Below, in pieces: positions 30,697 to 45,210 of a stretch of DNA of 52,493 nt. A program made the translations under genes and the position numbers. Source of the DNA: a phage. Position 1 is the first letter of the stretch, and every line of letters starts with the position of its first letter. Under the pieces are notes generated by a model, which was not told where the DNA came from, did no database searches, and saw only the letters and a list, made by a program, of their open reading frames with translations. The stretch lies in NCBI GenBank assembly GCA_017676125.1, contig GCA_017676125.1_4893.1. One strand, written 5' to 3'.

Positions 30697-31289
30697 TAAA
30701 ACAGTTCCTTTTGTGCCGGGTTAACGTGTGCGTCGATGATAGCCTGGATGTCAGGTGCTTTCCATCCTTCAGGCTTAACAATATCCTGACCAGACTTATG
30801 CTTACTGTTGCTTGCATCAGGCTTAGCACGTTCTTTCGCCATGTTAGCAGTCTGTACCGCATCCCATGCAGCATCAAGCGGCCAGTTGTTGTTTGCACAC
30901 CAGGTAATCAGGTGGATAATTAACTGGGCCAGACGGTCGCAATGGGTGTCTTCAGTATCTTTAACGTATACGATAAGACCATCAGCATCGAAGCGGTCCA
31001 TAAATCCGCATGGCGTAGTTAACAGAATCGGATATTCAAATTCGTTGGTGAACCATGCAGTCTGGTCGTACAGGTATAACGTACCTGCAGCAATATAAAT
31101 TAAATCTACAATACCGTCTAAGAATCCAGCTTTGTCGCCGTCCTTCTTAGCTTGTTTAATTTCTTCCATCTCCTCAATAAGACGGTCGTAGCGAAGCTTG
31201 AACTCAGGTTTACCGCCTTGGCTAACAGGCTTGAGGTCAAACTTCTCATGAAAAGCGGTAACGCCTGCAGCAATTTTACTGAATCGCAT
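30696..31289 (-). CDS. MazG-like nucleoside triphosphate pyrophosphohydrolase (putative)
   Basis: 197 aa; EEMEE...D acidic helix pattern resembling all-alpha NTP pyrophosphatase (MazG/HisE) fold; adjacent to thyA. Confidence 0.45.
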   Translation of the reverse strand: MRFSKIAAGVTAFHEKFDLKPVSQGGKPEFKLRYDRLIEEMEEIKQAKKDGDKAGFLDGIVDLIYIAAGTLYLYDQTAWFTNEFEYPILLTTPCGFMDRFDADGLIVYVKDTEDTHCDRLAQLIIHLITWCANNNWPLDAAWDAVQTANMAKERAKPDASNSKHKSGQDIVKPEGWKAPDIQAIIDAHVNPAQKELF

Positions 31290-31674
31290 TTCGTAACTCC
31301 TTACAAACAGTTTCGATAAACTTACGTTTAATTTCTGTAGACCAGATAATATGACGAGCCTGTTCTAAAGTGTCCCAACGTTCTTTACCCACAGGAAAGG
31401 GAACAATGAAAAGGCCGGTACGGGATATGCGCTTGATAAACGGGAATTTACAGCGCATGGTTGTTTCAAACTTGATAAAGTTTGTTTGCACTTCGCGTGT
31501 AAACTTGACCTTATCAAATTCACGTTCAAGAGTTTGAGCAATGTTGCATACTTCCTGGAAAGAAGATGCAGGCAAGTAATCTTCGCGGCCGACGGTGTTC
31601 ACGTAGTCGATTTGGCCCTCTAGCCGAAGTATCCAAATCCTGTAATAAGCTTCAGCAACACGTTGTAGGTTCAT
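31276..31674 (-). CDS. hypothetical protein
   Basis: 132 aa ORF downstream of a consensus promoter (minus strand), GAGGAGAG RBS. Confidence 0.5.
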   Translation of the reverse strand: MNLQRVAEAYYRIWILRLEGQIDYVNTVGREDYLPASSFQEVCNIAQTLEREFDKVKFTREVQTNFIKFETTMRCKFPFIKRISRTGLFIVPFPVGKERWDTLEQARHIIWSTEIKRKFIETVCKELRNAIQ

Positions 31675-31700
31675 TGTATCTCTCCTCTAAAAGATAACTT

Positions 31701-31729
31701 ATTATACCACATCACTCTCTAGTGGTAAA
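31701..31729 (-). promoter_or_regulatory. sigma70-like promoter (minus strand) TTTACC-N17-TATAAT
   Basis: On minus strand: -35 TTTACC (plus 31724-31729), 17-nt spacer, -10 TATAAT (plus 31701-31706); spacer contains CCAC...GTGG inverted repeat. Confidence 0.6.
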
Positions 31730-31749
31730 GCACTTTTTACGCTTCTGGT

Positions 31750-31780
31750 AAAAATAAAAAGGACCAGCGTTAACTGGTCC
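31750..31780 (-). terminator. rho-independent terminator (minus-strand transcripts; weaker on plus)
   Basis: Stem GGACCAG/CTGGTCC with 6-nt loop (31761-31780); on minus strand followed by TTTTTATTTTT. Confidence 0.7.
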
Positions 31781-32042
31781 TTTTGGCAGGGTGGCGTAAG
31801 GAGATACAAGGCATCGTAACTATGCAACCAGGCAGCGCATATGAGATTGGCCAAAAGACTTACCATTTTAATCCCCGCGACGAGACGAAAGGAGGTGTTA
31901 TCGAGTAGCCAATCACATATGCGTTACTTGCTGTGTGCTCTCACCGCGGAAAGTATAGAGCGTTGCACTTATTACACCGATGGAGTGGCAAAAGCACACA
32001 GCGAGTACAACCTTAGTTGTGGTGTCTTAGCACCTGAGTTAT

Positions 32043-32051
32043 TGTGGATAA
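32043..32051 (-). promoter_or_regulatory. DnaA box (perfect TTATCCACA on minus strand)
   Basis: Plus-strand TGTGGATAA at 32043-32051 is the reverse complement of the E. coli DnaA R-box consensus; sits in the loop of a 13-bp inverted repeat. Confidence 0.4.
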
Positions 32052-32350
32052 CCTGCACCCGACGGGTGTCAAAAAGATACGCCAAAACACCACAACTAAA
32101 ATTGTGACCGCCGTCTACACCAGGCGCCTGGGGTCAAGGTAGCGAGCCAATACCCTTTTCAGCGTCGGAGGAATCGAACCTCACACATCACGGCTTTTAC
32201 CAAATCTCGGTCAGCGAGCAGAATTGAACTGCATTCACTGGACACCCTCACTGTTTCAACACACCAGGCTTAATTGATTGTTGATAAGAAGAGAGATGTA
32301 AGGGTGTCCATTGAATGCACCTCCGTAGAGGTGCGTTCAGATCAGCGCTA

Positions 32351-32818
32351 TTATTCAGCAACTTCTTCGTTGTCGCCTTCGATCGCGCCAGCCAGTTTAG
32401 CAGCTTCAGCTTTAGCAGCTTCTGCTTTCTGGCGAGCTTTTTCAGCTTTCTCTTCAGCTTTGCGAATCTGCTCAGCAGCTTTCGCTTCGGCTTTTTCAGC
32501 TTTGATGCGAGCACGCTCTTCAGCTTTACGCTGTTTTTCAGCGGCTTTAGCAGCATCGCGTTCTGCTTTAGCGGTATCAACACGCTTAGCCAGAACTTTA
32601 CCAGTGGCTTTACGCCAGTAGGTCAGCTGGGAAGAAACAGTACCACGGGACATTTCGGTAGTGGCAACAACTTCGTCCATAACGTCAGAGCTGGACTTGC
32701 CTTCTTCATGGGCTTTATCAGCCAGGTCCCATACATAACGTGCACCAGTACCAGCTGCCGGATACAGTACGCCGTTAACTTCTTCTTTACCAGTTACAAA
32801 AGTCAGTTTCTCGCTCAT
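32351..32818 (-). CDS. histone H1-like / Lys-Ala-Glu-rich DNA-binding protein (putative)
   Basis: ATG at 32818 with GAGG RBS (track ORF extends to 32878); C-terminal ~75 aa is low-complexity AKAE/KAAEK repeats like histone H1 tails. Confidence 0.5.
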   Translation of the reverse strand: MSEKLTFVTGKEEVNGVLYPAAGTGARYVWDLADKAHEEGKSSSDVMDEVVATTEMSRGTVSSQLTYWRKATGKVLAKRVDTAKAERDAAKAAEKQRKAEERARIKAEKAEAKAAEQIRKAEEKAEKARQKAEAAKAEAAKLAGAIEGDNEEVAE

Positions 32819-32924
32819 AATTTTTTCCTCGTCTACAGGGCTTAATGTTTGTTCGTTACGTGAGTTAATATACGTCATTTAAAAGAGTGTGTAAACACCT
32901 TTTTTAAACTTTTTTCATTAGTGT

Positions 32925-33152: not shown

Positions 33153-34803
33153 TTCCCCAGTCGTAGTTCATGATTTGTGGGTAGGGTCGTTTAATCCATA
33201 CCTTGATGCGCTTAGGAATAGCCAGCTCACCCTTACGGCGAATAAACTCATCGCATGTTTCAGGCGGTTCTGTTCCTGCAGCATTACGCCACCAGGCATC
33301 TGCCATTTGCTTAGCATTGCCATGGGCCTCTATATTTACCCATGTTGTATACACTTCCAGGTTTGAGTAGTACACAACCTTTATACTGTCAGGCCGTCCC
33401 TGCTTCTGGAATAAAGAATAGTTTACCAGCGTAACATCTTTATCCACAACACGAAGCTGACCGTTAGTCATTACCTCTTCTTCTGATGAAGTGAAGGCAA
33501 TGGCAGGTCCGTTAACTGTAAACTCAAATTCATGTCCGCACATCGGATATACACCATTCTCGTCTGGCGTACTTCCTTTAGCCGGATGCTTACATGTACG
33601 GGCTGCATAGCCACTTACCTGGTGACAGATAGGGCACTCTTTACCGCCAGGTGTTTTCTCTGACCGTTTCTTTTTCTTCTTACCAAGACGAGGCGGAACA
33701 GCCGGGTCGTCAATAGGTCCAAGGTCAATGGTGTTAGATGTAAAGTCCATAACAAGACAGTCATGCTTGCCAGGCGCTGTACGTAATCCTCGACCAAGTA
33801 TCTGCACCCACAAGGCAACAGACGTGGACGGGCGCAAGATGCCGAGCATATCAATCTCAGGATAGTCAAATCCTGTCGTCAATACGTTTACGTTTACACA
33901 GACCCGTGCTCGTCCGCTTGTAAACTCTTCCAGTGCGGCTTCACGTTCTTTCTTTGTAAGACCGCCATGCACAACTACAGTCTGCCACCCTCGCAGATTA
34001 AATTCGTCTGCTATGTTGTGGGCGTGCTCAACACTTGTGGCAAATACAAGAACGTGGTTCCTGTCTTTACCGTAGTGCATCATCTCACGAATAGCCGCGA
34101 CTGTTATACTATGTTGGTTGGCTACCTTCTCAAGCTCTGACGGGATGTAGTCACCCATCCTTTCGCCAACATTACTGGTGTCAATCTTGGTTAACACTTT
34201 CTTGTTGACCAGGCGCGACAGGAAGCCTTCATTTACCAGTCGGGTGAATGCGTCAGGTGTTGTAAGGTCATAGCAGATGTCGGTAAATATACCACAGTCC
34301 AGCAAGTGACCACCTGCCAAGCGATACGGAGTTGCTGTGAGTCCTGTTACCTTTACCTTAGGATTAAGCTCTTTGAAGTGAGCAATAACCTTACGGTATG
34401 TTGTTTCAGACTTCTCAGGAACAAGATGGGCTTCGTCAATGAATATAAGATTGAACTTGCCTGCTTCTTCCAGGTTCTTAATGATTGACTGTACCGATGC
34501 TACAACGATACGACCTGAAAAGTCTTTGTGTCCTGCTCCTGAAGAGTAGATAGATACTGGGGCTTGTGGCCAGTGGCGTACAATCGCTTTGGCGTCTTGT
34601 TCTACCAGCTCCTTGACGTGTGTCAGTATAAGAATGCGCTGACGGGGATAGCTGGTAAGAATATCCTTCATCAGCATACCAAGCACAGGTGATTTACCTG
34701 AACCTGTCGGCATGACAATAAGTGGATTACCACTATAAGAATTGAAGTACGACCACCAGGCTGTGACCGCTTCTTGTTGATACCAGCGAGCTTCAAAAGC
34801 CAT
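33133..34803 (-). CDS. superfamily II DNA helicase (DEAH-box)
   Basis: 556 aa; Walker A PTGSGKS, motif II FIDEAH, TATP, motif VI QILGRGLR; C-terminal Cys cluster (CPICH...C...C) zinc ribbon. Confidence 0.85.
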   Translation of the reverse strand: MAFEARWYQQEAVTAWWSYFNSYSGNPLIVMPTGSGKSPVLGMLMKDILTSYPRQRILILTHVKELVEQDAKAIVRHWPQAPVSIYSSGAGHKDFSGRIVVASVQSIIKNLEEAGKFNLIFIDEAHLVPEKSETTYRKVIAHFKELNPKVKVTGLTATPYRLAGGHLLDCGIFTDICYDLTTPDAFTRLVNEGFLSRLVNKKVLTKIDTSNVGERMGDYIPSELEKVANQHSITVAAIREMMHYGKDRNHVLVFATSVEHAHNIADEFNLRGWQTVVVHGGLTKKEREAALEEFTSGRARVCVNVNVLTTGFDYPEIDMLGILRPSTSVALWVQILGRGLRTAPGKHDCLVMDFTSNTIDLGPIDDPAVPPRLGKKKKKRSEKTPGGKECPICHQVSGYAARTCKHPAKGSTPDENGVYPMCGHEFEFTVNGPAIAFTSSEEEVMTNGQLRVVDKDVTLVNYSLFQKQGRPDSIKVVYYSNLEVYTTWVNIEAHGNAKQMADAWWRNAAGTEPPETCDEFIRRKGELAIPKRIKVWIKRPYPQIMNYDWGNGYGAR

Positions 34804-39904: not shown

Positions 39905-40191
39905 TTACGTTTACCTTTACGTTTGTGTAGCGGAGTATATGTTTTCTTTGGCACGCCAAACATGGCCGCATATGTACCGACTTCTTTCTTTGTTGGCTTA
40001 TCCACAATTTCGTCAATCACGATTAAGTCATGGTTGATATTGCGAAAGACTTCAGCCGCTCTTTTCTCAACAGTAGTAAAGTCAATAACAAGCTCTTTGC
40101 CTATCAGGCTTTCTTTGAACTTGTCAAACAGCCATTTGTCTCGCGGACCAGGATTGCCCATAAACATAACACGCATCTGCTTACTGTCCAT
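39901..40191 (-). CDS. hypothetical protein
   Basis: 96 aa ORF, Lys/Arg-rich C-terminus. Confidence 0.45.
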   Translation of the reverse strand: MDSKQMRVMFMGNPGPRDKWLFDKFKESLIGKELVIDFTTVEKRAAEVFRNINHDLIVIDEIVDKPTKKEVGTYAAMFGVPKKTYTPLHKRKGKRK

Positions 40192-41967: not shown

Positions 41968-42300
41968 ATGATAAAGCCAAAACTGTTGCGGCATATTCGC
42001 AACGGTATTAAGCTACTCGCCGAAGGCAATGAATATGCCTGCAAGCAACGCGGTATTACAAAAGTCGGCCTGTTCAATAAAGAGTTACCGACTCGCTACT
42101 TTACCAAATCACCATTAACACTCGTACCTGCAGCGGAGTATTATAAAGACCCCGAAGCAGCTCGGGCTAAAATCAAGGAAGGTCTTGACCGACTTGTAGA
42201 GGAAGGCTATTTGACAGTACGTCAACACACTGAATCATCTTATTACTACAAGCCAACTTCTAAGGTAACCAGCAATGACAATGACGAGTCAGCCGAGTGA
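41968..42300 (+). CDS. hypothetical protein (possible DNA-binding/regulatory)
   Basis: 110 aa ORF with GAGGAGAG RBS, first gene of plus-strand island, overlaps primase gene start. Confidence 0.5.
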   Translation: MIKPKLLRHIRNGIKLLAEGNEYACKQRGITKVGLFNKELPTRYFTKSPLTLVPAAEYYKDPEAARAKIKEGLDRLVEEGYLTVRQHTESSYYYKPTSKVTSNDNDESAE

Positions 42301-44809
42301 TATTCTCGGTCTGAAATACTTTAAGCCAGAAGGGATTCCCCAAGTCTTCAAAGATATGAAGCGCTGGGCTATTTTTGAGCTGACGTACGAAGACGAGACC
42401 CTCGAAGTTCAATCCAAACCTAAGAAACCTGCAAGAGCGCCATCAGGCCGTTCCTTCAGCACAACAGTGCCTGAAGAGTGGATGACTTTCGACGACGCCC
42501 TGACACGTTGTATTCGCAATCGTGAAATGAAGATTAAAGCTGTACAGGGTAATATCACCTTTGTGCCGGCTTTGATTGTTCCTCGCCAGTGGTACTTTGT
42601 TGACCTGGACAACCATGATGATAATCCAGACATTGAAGCAACCCACAAAGCGATAATTGAGGGGACCCGTGGTGCGTATGCTGAGACATCAATCTCTGGC
42701 AAAGGGCAACACATTGCAATCCCTTTACCATGGACTGCAGCAACATCCAAAGAGAAAGACGAACAGCTGGACATCAAAATCCAGAAGGCTGAGATGTTCC
42801 TGGTAATGACAGGCAATGTATTGAGCGAGTTCAATGCTAATCCTGTTTCAGCCCGCGAATGGCATGCAGCAATTGAGAAGTTCTTTCTTGAAGCAAGCGC
42901 ACCTGATATTGATGTTGAGTTTGAGCAAGACGAAGACCGTGGCGAAGAGTATGACAAAGAGCTGTACGAACAGTTAGCCGACAATACTCGCTGGGCTTTA
43001 GAGCACTATCTGAATGAGCATGCACCAGACGGTGTTGGTGTGAGTAATGACGGTTCAGAACGGTTAAGCCGCATACTCAAAGATCTGCTTCGTGTAACCC
43101 GCAACTACGAAGTTACACAACGCATCTTCATGGCCAGCAAAGCTGCAGCATACGAAGGTCGCAGACCAAGCCGACATAACTTGTCTGTTGATAAGTACCA
43201 TCAATGGTTCAGTCGTGTTGGTAAGACTGTGCTGAAAGAAATGCAACGTGACGGCTTATTCGTTAAGACCAAGTTTGCTCTTGACATCAACAAAGAGTTA
43301 GCCAAGAATTCAGGTGTCTCCCTGGCTGAGAATGTTGAGTTCAAGGTCAACGACGATATTCTGCCTTCTGATGTATTCGTCAGAACGGCCCCGTCCGGGT
43401 TTAAACGGCTTATTGCTGAGATACAGGATAACATATCTCCTGCTAACAGGGTTAACGACTATGCCATCGGCACAGCTCTTAACATCCTGAGCAACTGCGC
43501 TGGTCGCAAGTATGTTTGTCCAGTAGGCGGTCATGCTAACTTCCTGGTAACCAACATCATTCTTGTGGGTGGTTCATCAATCGGTAAATCGCTGTATACC
43601 GAGTTGTTCCCACAAATCCAGGCAAGTGTGCCAGACACATCGCCTATCAGCCTTAACCGTATCCCAAGGGAACAGACTTTTGCAACCAGGACGTTTGCTG
43701 AACTGATGTCCAACCCGTCATACCATTCAGTCCAGTTGTTCTACCCTGAATTTGGTCTGGCTTTAGGTTCTGGCTTACGCATGAATCCTAACAACCCGGA
43801 CAACTTTCAGAAAGCTCTGATGGACGCTTCAACCAAGCGTAAGGTTGGTGGTATTCTGACAGGTATCAAACGTGCTAATGCTGACAATGATGTCAAGACA
43901 GTAAGCGAACCGTGCTACTCTATCCTGGGTGACTCAACTCAAGAGCTTATCCTTGACAACACCCGGAAGCAAGACTTCTCAAGTGGCTTTTTGCCCCGCT
44001 TCCTGTTCATCCCGAACTATGAACGAGCGGAGTTTGCCAAACCTGAGAAGGTAGGACGTCGCCAGCAGATTCGCCGTACTCAATTCTCCAAAGAGCTGAT
44101 TGAGAAGCTGGAGGCAATCGCTTATGTGAATGCTATCCCGCCTAACGGTAAACTAAGGCACGACCCGATTCCTATTTACGACGAATCGGACGACGACGAC
44201 TTCCTGTACGAGTACCAGTGCAATATTAATGACATGCGCCAGTATTACAGGGATAACGAAGTAGCATCTGCCTTTGTGGGCCGAATGGGCGAGTATGTAT
44301 TCAACATAGCAGCACTGATTGGATTACTCGACAACTGGGATGCTCCTGTAATGACCAGGGACAACATCGAATGGGCTTACAAATACGTTCTTCGTTGTAT
44401 AACCGCCTGGGTCAATAACACAAGCAGGATAGTCGCACCACCAACTACCAACGCCGAAGTAGTGGACGGCTTCCTCAAAGTCTACAGGGACATTTTGGCC
44501 CTTTACACCAAAAGAGGATGGTCTGGCATTGTCAAGCATTATCCCGAAGGTGTTGTAAGAAGTATCCGGGAGGAGCACCTCCAGATGAATGGTTTAAGCA
44601 TATATGCTATTCGTCAGTCTTTGAGCTGGTTTAAATCAAATTATGGTTTTAATATCACAGCTAATAACAAAGTCATTGACGGTATGCTCCAGGATATGAT
44701 TGACCAGGACTATTTAGCAGTACAAGTATATAAGCCCACAAGAGGCCGATCTGCTAACATTTACTGCCTGACAGAGCGAGGATATGACACTGCTAAGAAG
44801 TTAAAATAA
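42275..44809 (+). CDS. primase-polymerase (AEP/PrimPol) fused to P-loop (SF3/D5-like) helicase
   Basis: 844 aa; N-terminal FVDLDNHDD (DxD) and SISGKGQH (sGxGxH) PrimPol motifs; central Walker A VGGSSIGKS; DDDD Walker B-like run. Confidence 0.65.
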   Translation: MTMTSQPSDILGLKYFKPEGIPQVFKDMKRWAIFELTYEDETLEVQSKPKKPARAPSGRSFSTTVPEEWMTFDDALTRCIRNREMKIKAVQGNITFVPALIVPRQWYFVDLDNHDDNPDIEATHKAIIEGTRGAYAETSISGKGQHIAIPLPWTAATSKEKDEQLDIKIQKAEMFLVMTGNVLSEFNANPVSAREWHAAIEKFFLEASAPDIDVEFEQDEDRGEEYDKELYEQLADNTRWALEHYLNEHAPDGVGVSNDGSERLSRILKDLLRVTRNYEVTQRIFMASKAAAYEGRRPSRHNLSVDKYHQWFSRVGKTVLKEMQRDGLFVKTKFALDINKELAKNSGVSLAENVEFKVNDDILPSDVFVRTAPSGFKRLIAEIQDNISPANRVNDYAIGTALNILSNCAGRKYVCPVGGHANFLVTNIILVGGSSIGKSLYTELFPQIQASVPDTSPISLNRIPREQTFATRTFAELMSNPSYHSVQLFYPEFGLALGSGLRMNPNNPDNFQKALMDASTKRKVGGILTGIKRANADNDVKTVSEPCYSILGDSTQELILDNTRKQDFSSGFLPRFLFIPNYERAEFAKPEKVGRRQQIRRTQFSKELIEKLEAIAYVNAIPPNGKLRHDPIPIYDESDDDDFLYEYQCNINDMRQYYRDNEVASAFVGRMGEYVFNIAALIGLLDNWDAPVMTRDNIEWAYKYVLRCITAWVNNTSRIVAPPTTNAEVVDGFLKVYRDILALYTKRGWSGIVKHYPEGVVRSIREEHLQMNGLSIYAIRQSLSWFKSNYGFNITANNKVIDGMLQDMIDQDYLAVQVYKPTRGRSANIYCLTERGYDTAKKLK

Positions 44810-44821
44810 GTAGGTAAATCA

Positions 44822-44864
44822 AGGGCTTGGGTAATTGTAAAAATCCTAAGCCCTTATTTTTTAA
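44822..44864 (+). terminator. rho-independent terminator after primase-helicase gene
   Basis: Stem AGGGCTTGGG/CCTAAGCCCT with 13-nt loop followed by TATTTTTTAA. Confidence 0.65.
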
Positions 44865-45033
44865 GCTTATTTTACAAACTGATTAATATTTAAACTATAA
44901 TTAAATATATGGACCCTAAGAGTATGATTTTATTACTCTTTTACAAATCATAATATATGGGCTCCCTATAAAAAGATTAAGGGGGTAATAAGGGGATCCA
45001 AGTACCGGATAAAAGGGGGTATATATTTATTTT

Positions 45034-45053
45034 ATTATTATTATTATTATTAT
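45034..45053. repeat. (ATT)n microsatellite in AT-rich intergenic region
   Basis: ATTATTATTATTATTATTAT run, about six to seven units. Confidence 0.8.
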
Positions 45054-45210
45054 ATATTATTAATTATATTAGAAGTAATAAAAACAGCTACTTAGAGGCG
45101 TCTATATGTATGATCCGGTTTATCTCTTTATTAATATCAGAACCGGATGAAAAAAATTTACGCTGGCGAAAAAAATAAAAAAGCCGGATTGATAAATAAA
45201 TCTGTAGACG

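What the first reader, a model, noticed from the sequence alone, without database searches (positions are those of the whole stretch)
31675..32350. Structured ~670-bp non-coding region with a perfect DnaA box, nested inverted repeats and a tRNA T-arm-like motif
No convincing ORF covers this stretch between two minus-strand genes. It holds a perfect DnaA box (TGTGGATAA, 32043-32051) in the loop of a 13-bp perfect inverted repeat (32013-32025 / 32087-32099) that also contains the palindrome CACCCG-AC-GGGTG, a 19-bp near-perfect long-range inverted repeat (32230-32248 / 32301-32319), and on the minus strand GGTTCGATTCC (plus 32170-32180), the canonical tRNA T-loop. I could not fold a complete cloverleaf. 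A minus-strand intrinsic terminator sits at 31750-31780, so the region is probably transcribed as a long structured RNA or 3' UTR. Candidates: replication origin, tRNA-like/regulatory ncRNA, or remnant tRNA-derived site.
Basis: seen in the sequence. Interest (0 to 1): 0.65.

Follow-up and report, generated by a model that had tools for sequence, protein, structure and literature searches.

The report
Anticodon-less tRNA-like phage RNA locus
This gene-free 676 bases of a Salmonella/E. coli phage most likely encodes, on the minus strand, a chain of conserved RNA hairpins around a tRNA-like RNA with no anticodon, a member of a widespread and apparently undescribed family found in phage tRNA gene clusters; the evidence does not favour a replication origin.

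Summary
The window is a Rosemountvirus (BP63-like myophage). Positions 31675-32350 are non-coding and lie between two minus-strand genes.

Covariation and a strong excess of G.U over A.C pairs show that the inverted repeats are RNA hairpins of the minus-strand transcript. In order they are hairpin A, hairpin B (20-22 bp), a tRNA-like module, hairpin D (25 bp, with the DnaA box at its tip), hairpins E and F, and a terminator.

In distant relatives the same slot holds tRNA-Pro(UGG) and tRNA-Gln(UUG). Here it holds a module with two T-arm hairpins, a D-loop-like AUUUGGUAAA and a covarying closing helix. The module has no anticodon arm.

A covariance model built here scores the window at 78.9 bits (E about 1e-17). 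It finds the same module in more than 25 unrelated phage contigs, often placed directly beside tRNA genes. True tRNAs score at most 16.5 bits. Rfam, ARAGORN and the literature searches returned nothing.

The DnaA box is one of three perfect boxes in the window. It is absent from relatives that share the replication genes. Its conservation is not separable from that of the surrounding hairpin apex.

Function is inferred, not shown: I propose a processed, stable mimic of the tRNA elbow. Expression and function are untested.

The parts
32312..32339 (-). Hairpin A, directly after the stop codon of the upstream 175-aa gene. Stem GCACCUC/GAGGUGC with a UACG tetraloop. No U run follows it.
   Evidence: Inverted repeat I6. 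The tetraloop is UACG or UUCG in relatives, and the stem sequence differs in distant relatives (GCCCCUC/GAGGGGC).
32230..32319 (-). Hairpin B. A 20-22 bp stem with a conserved base (CAUUC...GAAUG). Its apical loop carries GCCUGGUGUGUUG and a one-mismatch DnaA-like TTATCAACA.
   Evidence: On alignment A2, 13 of 20 pairs show changes on both sides and 89% of cells are paired; 0 of 500 shuffles reached this. G.U to A.C cells are 49:8. A homologous hairpin is present in all five locus types.
32105..32237 (-). tRNA-like module without an anticodon arm, read 5' to 3' on the minus strand.
- AAUG lead-in.
- T1 hairpin, 32218-32232.
- Linker UCGC.
- P1 5' strand UGACCG, 32208-32213.
- AG, then the D-loop-like AUUUGGUAAAA, about 32195-32207.
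- T2 T-arm GAGG-UUCGAUU-CCUC, 32168-32182.
- Inserted helices P3 and H, about 32111-32167, with the loop GCUCGCUACC.
- P1 3' strand CGGUCA, 32105-32110.
   Evidence: Model R1 matches 32162-32237 on the minus strand at 78.9 bits, E about 1e-17. It is the only match in the window. The T2 stem covaries: 4 of 5 pairs change on both sides. The T1 stem covaries across the family. P1 covaries: A-U changes to G-C and C-G changes to U-A. A GGC-type partner is found in 9 of 9 G-variants against 3 of 16 A-variants, Fisher p = 1e-4.
32007..32105 (-). Hairpin D. A 25-bp stem (32081-32105 with 32007-32031) carries a conserved three-way apex made of CUUUUUGACA, mini-hairpin D1 (CACCC-GUC-GGGUG, 32056-32068) and mini-hairpin D2 (GGUUAU-CCACA-AUAACU).
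   Evidence: On alignment A3, 97% of cells are paired and 7 stem pairs change on both sides. G.U to A.C cells are 46:3. The hairpin lies at a different position in the KE25/fHy-Eco03 clade.
32043..32051 (-). Perfect DnaA-box nonamer TTATCCACA. Its first four bases are stem and its last five are loop of mini-hairpin D2.
   Evidence: It is invariant wherever hairpin D exists. It is absent from locus types I, II and III.
31925..32007 (-). Hairpin E. Stem ACUCGCUGUGUGCU / AGCACACAGCAAGU, 15 nt arms, 93% complementary.
   Evidence: Inverted repeat I4 and I12. It is also present in Loughboroughvirus.
31829..31930 (-). Hairpin F. Arms of 23 nt, 83% complementary. Present in Rosemountvirus and deleted in Loughboroughvirus.
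   Evidence: Inverted repeat I3. The alignment gap is seen.
31747..31784 (-). Intrinsic terminator: AAAAGGACCAG-UUAACG-CUGGUCCUUUU followed by UAUUUUU.
   Evidence: It is conserved in all locus types, with compensatory stem changes such as CCAG/CUGG to CCUG/CAGG.
31701..31729 (-). Sigma-70-type promoter with an extended -10 (TTTACC, 17 nt, TGGTATAAT) for the downstream 132-aa gene. It marks the 3' limit of the RNA locus.
   Evidence: It is conserved in all relatives and annotated as a promoter in BP63.

Best explanation
The region is an RNA locus, not a DNA site.

Shown:
- The minus strand encodes a series of evolutionarily maintained RNA helices: A, B, the tRNA-like module, D, E, F and a terminator.
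- The module at 32105-32237 belongs to a family of anticodon-less tRNA-like RNAs. These have two T-loop hairpins, a D-loop-like GG loop and a closing helix P1.
- The family occurs in many unrelated phages, often directly beside tRNA genes.
- In phages syntenic with this one, the same slot holds tRNA-Pro(UGG) and tRNA-Gln(UUG).

Inferred:
- The region is transcribed from the promoter of the upstream 175-aa gene (about 32895) through to the terminator at 31757, so it is a roughly 570-nt 3' extension of that mRNA.
- The 20-25 bp hairpins flanking the module act as processing and stability elements. They may be RNase III-type sites and 3' exonuclease barriers for the upstream mRNA.
- The tRNA-like module is released as a stable small RNA by the host enzymes that mature tRNA precursors.
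- The module keeps the tRNA elbow (T-loop docked on a GG loop) but has no anticodon arm and no conserved CCA end, so it cannot decode.
- The most likely role is to act in trans as a tRNA mimic that occupies a protein recognising the tRNA elbow or core. Candidates are a host tRNA-directed nuclease or sensor, a tRNA-modifying or processing enzyme, or a Ro/Rsr-type protein.
- The DnaA-box sequence is read here as part of a conserved RNA apex, not as a DnaA site.
For: Identity of the phage and non-coding status:
- The window is a Rosemountvirus.
- The region is unannotated, or only filled with small ORFs, in 60 records.
- No ORF is conserved.

Evidence that the structures are RNA on the minus strand:
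- Fold z-score is -8.5.
- Hairpin B has 13 of 20 covarying pairs.
- Hairpin D has a 25-bp stem, 97% paired, with 7 pairs changed on both sides.
- G.U to A.C cells are 49:8 in B and 46:3 in D, so the opposite strand would pair only 78-83%.
- Hairpin A has UNCG tetraloops.
- The terminator is conserved and covaries.

Evidence that this is a tRNA slot:
- tRNA-Pro and tRNA-Gln occupy the syntenic intergenic region in SOI901 and in six metagenomic relatives.

Evidence for the module and its family:
- A 49-nt block is 88% identical between clades whose adjacent 132-aa proteins are 44% identical.
- T2, T1 and P1 all covary.
- R1 scores the window at 78.9 bits, other family members at 32-88 bits and true tRNAs at 16.5 bits or less.
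- Family members directly abut a tRNA gene in several contigs and lie near tRNA genes in others.

Evidence that it is not a known family:
- ARAGORN finds nothing.
- Rfam gives no match even at E up to 10 on 171 nt.
- Nothing relevant turned up in the literature searches.
Against: - There are no expression data. The transcript, its ends, its processing and its stability are all inferred.
- The proposed trans-acting decoy role has no direct support. No partner protein was identified.
- A purely cis-acting role in mRNA 3' stability or processing fits most of the same facts for this window.
- The family was collected with sequence patterns taken from the conserved 20-mer, so its true breadth and variability are not sampled without bias.
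- Several alignments were anchored by hand or fitted to the model. The shuffle controls are not probabilities for related sequences.
- The invariant CUCG-CUGRC-CGAG could form an alternative short hairpin that competes with P1.
- The roughly 90% conserved apex of hairpin D, which includes the perfect DnaA box, is unexplained, and a DNA-level role there is not excluded.
- Hairpin F is dispensable in Loughboroughvirus, so not every element need be functional.
Confidence: 0.62

Rival explanations
1. Cis-acting 3' UTR only. The hairpins and the tRNA-like fold serve only to end, process and stabilise the mRNA of the upstream gene, and to insulate it from the next promoter. No trans-acting RNA product is made.
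For: - Hairpin A follows the stop codon directly and hairpin B follows A, in all five locus types, including those with real tRNAs and those with none.
- The locus ends in a conserved terminator next to a conserved promoter.
- The minimal loci L020 and L028 keep only A, B, one more long hairpin and the terminator.
Against: - The module also occurs as a compact 100-130 nt unit inside tRNA arrays, or alone before a U run, in unrelated phages that have no equivalent upstream gene.
- Its sequence conservation far exceeds that of the flanking proteins.
- A stability element would not need two T-loops plus a GG loop.
Confidence: 0.2
2. Decaying remnants of a tRNA-Pro/tRNA-Gln pair with no present function.
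For: - Relatives carry intact tRNA-Pro and tRNA-Gln at this locus.
- T1 plus the bases after it resembles the T-arm and 3' end of tRNA-Pro.
- The D-loop, variable region and T2 align with tRNA-Gln once its anticodon arm is removed (sequences).
- ARAGORN and the Rfam tRNA model reject the region.
Against: - Stems T1, T2 and P1 keep pairing through compensatory changes.
- The core 30-mer is nearly invariant between clades whose neighbouring proteins are about 40% identical.
- The same architecture recurs in more than 25 unrelated phage contigs.
- A pseudogene would not show these patterns.
Confidence: 0.06
3. DnaA-assisted replication origin, or another DNA-level DnaA site, centred on the box at 32043-32051. 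The inverted repeats would act as cruciform or single-strand initiation structures.
For: - There is a perfect TTATCCACA box, plus TTATCAACA at 32279-32287 in the same orientation.
- The box is invariant in every genome that has hairpin D.
- The locus lies inside the replication/recombination gene block.
- Boxes with at most one mismatch are mildly enriched genome-wide, 24 against 13.4 expected.
Against: - Only two boxes occur in 676 bp, and two further perfect boxes lie elsewhere in the window.
- There is no AT-rich segment and no skew change here.
- Hairpin D and its box are missing from locus types I, II and III, which share the helicase, polymerase and neighbouring genes.
- The stems carry 46-49 G.U cells against 3-8 A.C cells, as expected for RNA on one strand and not for DNA cruciforms.
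- The whole 50-nt apex is conserved, not the nonamer in particular.
- A cluster of AT-rich inverted repeats next to the primase gene at 44.8-45.1 kb looks more origin-like.
Confidence: 0.06
4. A phage Y RNA (YrlA-like) that binds the host Ro60 orthologue Rsr.
For: - YrlA RNAs contain a permuted tRNA-like domain in the order T-arm, short acceptor-like hairpin, D-arm, and are modified by TruB and DusA (PMC4201824).
- The module has the same order: T1, then CUCG-CUGAC-CGAG, then AUUUGGUAAA. Its D-loop matches the YrlA consensus AauuuGGUA shown.
- Salmonella hosts encode Rsr (stated in PMC4201824).
Against: - The Rfam YrlA model gives no match even at E up to 10.
- No TROVE/Ro60 protein was found among the 17 window proteins scanned, and none lies near the locus.
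- No GNCGAA motif is present, and there is no long stem pairing the 5' and 3' ends.
- The two variable bases of the putative acceptor-like loop covary with a distal strand (P1).
Confidence: 0.05

Closest known systems
YrlA-type bacterial Y RNAs (Rfam RF02553; Chen et al. 2014, PMC4201824)
   Same: - Both are non-decoding RNAs built around a tRNA elbow.
- Both have a canonical T-arm followed by a short hairpin and then a D-loop with the sequence AUUUGGUA.
- Both lack an anticodon loop.
- Both are also found in phages.
   Different: - The YrlA model gives no match.
- There is no Ro60 gene nearby and no GNCGAA Ro-binding motif.
- This family has a second T-arm, no D-stem hairpin, and a closing helix (P1) formed with the 3' end.
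- It lies in tRNA arrays rather than next to rsr.
tRNA-like domain of tmRNA
   Same: - An acceptor-like helix is followed directly by a D-loop analogue without a D-stem.
- There is a canonical T-arm.
- The anticodon arm is missing.
   Different: - ARAGORN finds no tmRNA.
- There is no tag reading frame and there are no pseudoknots.
- There is no G3.U70 pair and no conserved CCA end.
- The extra sequence is inserted between the T-arm and the 3' strand, not at the anticodon position.
Phage T4 species 1 and 2 stable RNAs (rnaC, rnaD) in the T4 tRNA cluster
   Same: - Both are small non-tRNA RNAs encoded inside a phage tRNA gene cluster, presumably matured with the tRNAs.
- Function is unknown in both cases.
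- rnaC has a T-arm near its 3' end.
   Different: - There is no sequence similarity.
- Model R1 gives only a 12.7-bit partial match in the T4 region, and that match lies on a T4 tRNA gene (tRNA-Leu, L071 4371-4457), not on rnaC or rnaD.
Phage-encoded tRNA genes (for example tRNA-Pro and tRNA-Gln of Erwinia phage SOI901)
   Same: - The genomic slot and strand are the same.
- The flanking hairpins A and B, the terminator and the promoter are the same.
- The T-arm and D-loop sequences are similar.
   Different: - There is no anticodon arm, no D-stem and no 7-bp acceptor stem with CCA.
- tRNA finders reject it.
RNase III processing hairpins of phage early transcripts (T7 R sites; own knowledge)
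   Same: Stems of 20-25 bp with internal mismatches lie between functional units of one transcript (hairpins B, D, E and F).
   Different: Cleavage has not been tested. The apical loops here are conserved in sequence, which RNase III sites do not need.
DnaA-box origins (oriC, P1 oriR, plasmid origins; own knowledge)
   Same: One perfect TTATCCACA box lies within a replication gene block.
   Different: There is no box cluster and no AT-rich unwinding element. The box is not conserved among relatives, and the repeats behave as RNA.

Membership tests
Canonical tRNA gene | Cloverleaf with anticodon arm, detected by tRNA finders | tested here: not met
   ARAGORN finds 0 genes in the window and in close relatives. 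The Rfam tRNA model gives no match at E up to 10 on 1001 nt or on 171 nt.
Canonical tRNA gene | T-arm: 5-bp stem with a 7-nt loop UUCRANY | tested here: met
   There are two such hairpins on the minus strand. T1 is GCAG-UUCAAUU-CUGC at 32218-32232. T2 is GAGG-UUCGAUU-CCUC at 32168-32182. Both stems covary.
Canonical tRNA gene | 7-bp acceptor stem followed by a discriminator base and CCA | tested here: not met
   The closing helix P1 has 6 bp (UGACCG/CGGUCA) and is followed by CAAUU in the window. Only Loughboroughvirus has CGGUCA-A-CCA.
Two-T-loop tRNA-like RNA family (model R1, defined here) | T1 hairpin, UCGC, UGRCCG, AG, AUUnGGUAA, short spacer, T2 T-arm, in that order | tested here: met
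   The window at 32162-32237 (minus strand) scores 78.9 bits, E about 1e-17. Thirty-three other loci score 32-88 bits. tRNAs score 16.5 bits or less, and the chance 20-mer hits L045 and L046 score about 15 bits. The window was one of the 14 sequences used to build the model, so the relevant evidence is the independent matches.
Two-T-loop tRNA-like RNA family (model R1, defined here) | Closing helix P1 between UGRCCG and a distal (C)GGYCA | tested here: met
   In the window it is 32208-32213 with 32105-32110. The R/Y position covaries: a GGC-type partner occurs in 9 of 9 G-variants against 3 of 16 A-variants, p = 1e-4. L064 has UGAUCG with GAUCA.
Two-T-loop tRNA-like RNA family (model R1, defined here) | Placement in a tRNA gene cluster or tRNA slot | tested here: met
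   The syntenic slot holds tRNA-Pro and tRNA-Gln in 7 related loci. Other members directly abut tRNA genes (L043, L049, L056, L059, L062, L063, L065, L070) or have one within about 50 nt (L030, L061); L047 and L064 have tRNAs only several hundred nt to more than 1 kb away.
YrlA / bacterial Y RNA (RF02553) | Match to the family covariance model | tested here: not met
   There is no match at E up to 10. The model does match the junction of real tRNAs in L013 at 23.9 bits, which shows it was being searched.
YrlA / bacterial Y RNA (RF02553) | Encoded within about 4 kb of a Ro60 (TROVE) gene on the same strand | tested here: not met
   Neighbouring proteins have no TROVE domain. None of 10 further large proteins has one. 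Not every small ORF of the window was scanned.
YrlA / bacterial Y RNA (RF02553) | Order T-arm, acceptor-like hairpin, D-arm, with tRNA-like D-loop | tested here: inconclusive
   The order T1, CUCG-CUGAC-CGAG, AUUUGGUAAA fits, and the D-loop matches the consensus. However there is no D-stem hairpin, and the loop bases of the putative acceptor-like hairpin pair with the distal strand.
YrlA / bacterial Y RNA (RF02553) | GNCGAA(N)G Ro-binding motif near the 5' end | tested here: not met
   The motif is not present in the 141-nt module sequence printed, read by eye.
DnaA-dependent replication origin | Cluster of several DnaA boxes | tested here: not met
   There is one perfect box and one box with a single mismatch in 676 bp. 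Perfect boxes also lie at 33440 and 39998.
DnaA-dependent replication origin | Adjacent AT-rich unwinding element, or a compositional inflection | tested here: not met
   GC is 0.45-0.48 across 30-34 kb, and the skew simply follows gene orientation. This is a weak test for a phage.
DnaA-dependent replication origin | Conservation among phages that share the replication proteins | tested here: not met
   TTATCCACA and hairpin D are absent from locus types I, II and III, which share the syntenic replication genes.
DnaA-dependent replication origin | DnaA binding and origin activity | not testable with these tools
   Needs footprinting or ChIP, and origin mapping.
tmRNA | tRNA-like domain plus tag reading frame | tested here: not met
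   ARAGORN, which also searches for tmRNA, finds none in the window.
Intrinsic (rho-independent) terminator | GC-containing hairpin followed by a U run | tested here: met
   31784->31757 has 12 pairs and is followed by UAUUUUU. It is conserved with compensatory changes.
RNase III-type processing hairpin | About 20 bp or more of double-stranded RNA | tested here: met
   Hairpin B has 20-22 bp and hairpin D has 25 bp. Whether they are cleaved was not testable.

The most novel reading that the evidence does not exclude
The module represents a new class of phage-encoded, anticodon-less mimics of the tRNA elbow. These RNAs have two T-loops docked on GG loops. They are matured with tRNAs and act in trans. 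They either neutralise host immunity or stress systems that sense or cut tRNAs, or they capture a tRNA-binding enzyme. In Rosemountvirus the module has replaced a tRNA-Pro/tRNA-Gln pair. Hairpin D with its DnaA-box-like apex would be a second conserved RNA ligand of unknown partner.
Probability: 0.3. Interest if true: 0.85.

Novelty: new variant of a known kind. Interest (0 to 1): 0.64.

Why it matters
- Phage tRNA genes are now known to counter host defences that attack tRNAs. A conserved RNA that keeps the tRNA elbow but cannot decode would be a different kind of player in that conflict, or a new ligand for tRNA-binding proteins.
- The family is invisible to tRNA finders and to Rfam. It is therefore left blank, or covered with spurious small ORFs, in every deposited genome examined.
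- The covariance model and coordinates given here make it directly testable in easily grown Salmonella and E. coli phages such as BP63, S144 and fHy-Eco03.
- The result also corrects a tempting misreading. A perfect DnaA box inside nested inverted repeats need not mark an origin.
- Strand-asymmetric G.U pairing is a simple way to tell RNA hairpins from DNA sites.

Tried and rejected
- **Known RNA families.** Rfam at gathering and at permissive thresholds, on the window and on seven relatives, gave only weak miRNA-like hairpin matches and the real tRNAs of relatives.
- **Small proteins.** ORFs of 20 aa or more on both strands are not conserved in length or frame. The short peptide similarities only mirror nucleotide conservation.
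- **Host-derived repeat or MITE for hairpin D.** There is no similarity in 5,426 E. coli genomes or in plasmids, apart from phage genomes filed as plasmids.
- **Promoter inside hairpin D (TTGACA).** The spacing to the only -10-like hexamer is 16 nt in the window and 19 nt in relatives, and the promoter scan found nothing there.
- **Homology to T4 rnaC and rnaD.** None was seen, and R1 gives no match on them.
- **Permuted tRNA, two-piece tmRNA, or acceptor-T minihelix readings of T1 plus UCGCUGACC.** No complementary 5' acceptor strand is conserved upstream of T1 in the family. The CAGUGA upstream of T1 in the window is part of hairpin B and is absent elsewhere.
- **GC skew as an origin test.** It is uninformative, because skew tracks gene orientation.
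- **Hits in the bacterial genome collection.** One is a Rosemountvirus contig in a MAG. The other two are chance: about two are expected in 596 Gb, and they score about 15 bits with R1.
- **Global MAFFT alignment across all locus types.** It misaligns because modules are rearranged, so I worked module by module.
- **Best-complement search for P1.** It picks sites by construction, so I replaced it with a cross-variant contingency test.
Full report
**What the window is.** The 851 bases around the finding are 95-99.5% identical to 45 deposited Rosemountvirus genomes (Salmonella phage BP63 and relatives, about 52 kb, infecting Salmonella and E. coli). They are about 80% identical to Loughboroughvirus (ZCSE2, S144). 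The region 31675-32350 lies between two minus-strand genes of unknown function. One encodes 175 aa (32351-32878) and the other 132 aa (31276-31674). Both sit inside a block containing a Sak4-like annealase, an SSB, a Cas4-like exonuclease, a helicase, an NTP pyrophosphohydrolase, thymidylate synthase and a family A DNA polymerase. Deposited records leave the region blank or fill it with unrelated small ORFs. Published descriptions state that these phages have no tRNA genes and do not mention the region.

**Check of the observation.**
- The repeat finder shows a chain of inverted repeats: 31829-31851/31908-31930, 31925-31939/31993-32007, 31998-32031/32081-32114, 32230-32251/32298-32319 and 32312-32323/32328-32339, plus the terminator stem at 31757-31784.
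- The 601-nt minus-strand RNA folds at -236 kcal/mol, z = -8.5.
- Three of the 15 longest inverted repeats in the 52-kb window lie in these 600 bases.
- The T-loop 11-mer is not significant on its own.
- The DnaA box is one of three perfect boxes in the window.

**Relatives.** I collected the syntenic intergenic region from other isolates and from metagenomic contigs. The search used the adjacent 132-aa protein, so it did not depend on the RNA sequence. Five locus types emerged.
- Type I (7 loci, including Erwinia phage SOI901) carries tRNA-Pro(UGG) and tRNA-Gln(UUG) on the gene strand.
- Type II (2 loci) has neither tRNAs nor T-loops.
- Types III, IV and V have no tRNA. They have two T-arm-like hairpins 45-50 nt apart. 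Type V is the window plus Loughboroughvirus.

All five types share four elements. Hairpin A follows the stop codon. Long hairpin B follows A. There is a terminator, and then the promoter of the next gene. The 132-aa proteins of the window and of types I-IV are only 34-44% identical. Even so, a 49-nt block around the first T-loop is 88% identical between the window and type IV.

**RNA, and on which strand.** Hairpin B was aligned by anchoring both arms on its conserved base.
- 13 of 20 pairs have changes on both sides.
- 89% of cells are paired, against 34-49% when the partner is slid by one to three columns.
- No shuffle out of 500 reached the observed values.

Hairpin D turned out to be a 25-bp stem.
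- 97% of cells are paired.
- Seven pairs are changed on both sides.

G.U cells outnumber A.C cells 49:8 in hairpin B and 46:3 in hairpin D. On the plus strand only 78% and 83% of cells would pair. Hairpin A closes with UACG or UUCG, and these are stable tetraloops only in the minus-strand sense. The terminator stem also changes in a compensatory way between clades. No small ORF is conserved (87). I conclude that the inverted repeats are helices of a minus-strand RNA. That the RNA starts at the promoter of the 175-aa gene (32895->32867) is an inference.

**The tRNA-like module.** Read on the minus strand, the window has the following sequence:
- AAUG, then T1 (GCAG-UUCAAUU-CUGC), then UCGC;
- UGACCG, then AG, then AUUUGGUAAAA;
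- 15 nt of spacer, then T2 (GAGG-UUCGAUU-CCUC);
- about 57 nt that can form two nested helices (P3 and H);
- CGGUCA.

Evidence for each helix:
- The T2 stem differs in every clade while keeping its pairing: GAGG/CCUC, CUGGG/CCCAG, GCCUG/CAGGC and ACCGG/CCGGU. Four of five pairs change on both sides.
- UGACCG pairs with CGGUCA to form helix P1. Where the 5' strand is UGGCCG, the 3' strand is GGCCA or GGCUU. In one contig UGAUCG goes with GAUCA.
- In a test not biased by choosing the best complement, a GGC-type partner is present in 9 of 9 G-variants and in 3 of 16 A-variants (Fisher p = 1e-4).
- P3 also shows compensatory changes between Rosemountvirus and Loughboroughvirus: CGCUG/CA(G)GCG against CGCCA/UGGCG (sequences).

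The loop AUUUGGUA has the pattern of a tRNA D-loop (A14, G18, G19, A21), but no D-stem flanks it. If the anticodon arm is removed from the tRNA-Gln of SOI901, the remainder aligns well with the type III sequence. The remainder reads CAGUUGGUAGA-GGUUGUC-AGUGG-UUCGAAU-CCACU. The type III sequence reads GAUUGUGGUAAA-GGUUGUU-ACCGG-UUCGAUU-CCGGU. This is the basis for calling the module tRNA-derived. The direction of evolution is not settled.

**A wider family.**
- The conserved 20-mer, and two relaxed patterns, were searched in IMG/VR. They returned dozens of contigs of 5 to 240 kb unrelated to Rosemountvirus.
- BLAST also found the module in Pseudomonas phage Touem01 and Xylophilus phage Lumi, unannotated in both.
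- In these contigs the module is compact, about 100-130 nt.
- The T1 stem varies with pairing kept: GCAG/CUGC, CGGG/CCCG, GCGG/CCGC, GGCG/CGCC and GCCG/CGGC.
- P1 is often followed by a U run.
- The module often starts a few nucleotides after a tRNA, or ends just before one. Examples are tRNA-Phe, -Ala, -Gln, -Thr and -Ser(UGA) upstream, and tRNA-Ser(GCU) downstream.
- A covariance model built from 14 sequences (R1) scores 34 loci at 32-88 bits, with the window at 78.9 bits and E about 1e-17.
- The best true tRNAs score 16.5 bits, the two chance 20-mer hits from bacterial MAGs about 15 bits, and the only match in the T4 tRNA region is a 12.7-bit partial hit on a tRNA gene.
- On the model-fitted alignment 97% of cells pair, and six of nine pairs have changes on both sides. 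This alignment leans towards the model.

**Comparison with known kinds.** ARAGORN and the Rfam models for tRNA, tmRNA and YrlA reject the module.
- The nearest described architecture is the tRNA-like domain of bacterial Y RNAs (YrlA). It runs T-arm, short acceptor-like hairpin, D-arm, and has the D-loop consensus AauuuGGUA (PMC4201824).
- The module has the same order if CUCG-CUGAC-CGAG is read as the short hairpin.
- Against a YrlA reading, its two variable loop bases covary with the distal strand.
- There is also no Ro60 gene, no GNCGAA motif and no terminal Ro-binding stem.
- The tRNA-like domain of tmRNA shares the pattern of acceptor helix, D-loop without stem, and T-arm, but nothing else.
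- T4 rnaC and rnaD share only their placement in a tRNA cluster.

I therefore treat the module as a new family of a known kind, tRNA mimics. I do not place it in any described family.

**The DnaA box and the origin idea.**
- The box forms half of the stem and the whole loop of mini-hairpin D2, at the apex of hairpin D.
- The whole apex of about 50 nt is roughly 90% conserved between types IV and V. The box does not stand out within it.
- Hairpin D lies after the module in type V, but between hairpin B and T1 in type IV.
- It is absent from types I-III.
- There is no box cluster, no AT-rich stretch and no skew change.
- A more origin-like region was seen in passing. It is a cluster of AT-rich nested inverted repeats at 44.8-45.1 kb, in the lowest-GC part of the window, directly after the primase gene.
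- DnaA binding at 32043 cannot be excluded without experiment, but nothing requires it.

**Mechanism proposed.**
- Shown: conserved minus-strand RNA helices; a tRNA-derived, anticodon-less module of a widespread phage family; occupation of a tRNA slot.
- Inferred: co-transcription with the upstream gene.
- Inferred: processing at the flanking long hairpins and by tRNA-maturing enzymes.
- Inferred: accumulation as a stable small RNA.
- Inferred: action as a mimic of the tRNA elbow on a tRNA-binding protein.

The main rival is a purely cis-acting role in mRNA 3' end formation and stability. That role probably does apply to hairpins A and B.

**Limits.**
- There are no expression data.
- The family was gathered from pattern-seeded searches.
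- Some alignments were anchored by hand or fitted to the model.
- The shuffle counts are not probabilities for related sequences.
- The fold of the region between T2 and P1, the roles of hairpins D, E and F, and the conserved loop motif GCCUGGUG(Y)GUUGG remain unexplained.

Noticed in passing
window 44800-45100: A cluster of AT-rich nested inverted repeats lies in the lowest-GC part of the window (GC about 0.40-0.42). It sits directly downstream of the 844-aa DNA primase gene (42275-44809) and upstream of a RusA-like resolvase gene. It looks more like an origin or regulatory region than the finding does.
   Followed up: partly
window 33440-33448 (+) and 39998-40006 (+): There are two further perfect DnaA boxes. 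Boxes with at most one mismatch are mildly enriched genome-wide: 24 observed against 13.4 +/- 3.6 expected.
   Followed up: no
window 32264-32273 and 32117-32125 (minus strand GCCUGGUGU); relatives L003-L029: The motif GCCUGGUG(Y)GUUGG(UGUAGC) sits in the apical loop of a long hairpin in all five locus types. A second copy lies just before the P1 3' strand in the window. It may be a second GG loop that docks a T-loop.
   Followed up: no
L030, L056, L059, L061, L062, L063, L070: The module is repeatedly next to tRNA-Ser. tRNA-Ser(GCU) lies just downstream in four contigs, and tRNA-Ser(UGA) lies just upstream in three. The G-variant UGGCCGAGA equals positions 8-16 of class II tRNA-Ser (own knowledge of the E. 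coli sequence); the window itself has the A-variant UGACCGAGA.
   Followed up: no
public records NZ_CP067310.1, NZ_JBVNBN010000003.1, PP583539.1, JAEWER010000021.1 (L044): Rosemountvirus genomes are deposited under misleading labels. Two are filed as E. coli 'plasmids', one as a 'Listeria phage' that is 99% identical to Salmonella phages, and one sits inside a 'Bacillota MAG'.
   Followed up: no
L024 100-285: One tRNA-bearing relative has an extra insertion of about 180 nt between hairpin B and tRNA-Pro. This shows that the locus readily gains and loses modules.
   Followed up: no
L072 446-1389 (Pseudomonas phage Touem01): A gene-free stretch of about 940 nt holds the module, a further T-arm-like hairpin (GCGGGUUCGAAUCCCGU) and a terminator. 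None of it is annotated.
   Followed up: no
L064 5312-5674: A 98-kb phage contig that carries the module also encodes a tmRNA and several tRNAs.
   Followed up: no
window 32351-32878 (minus strand): The upstream 175-aa protein has a long Lys/Ala/Glu-rich C-terminal half that looks like a coiled coil, and it has no Pfam match. Deposited records start it 20 codons later (468 nt) than the longest ORF.
   Followed up: no
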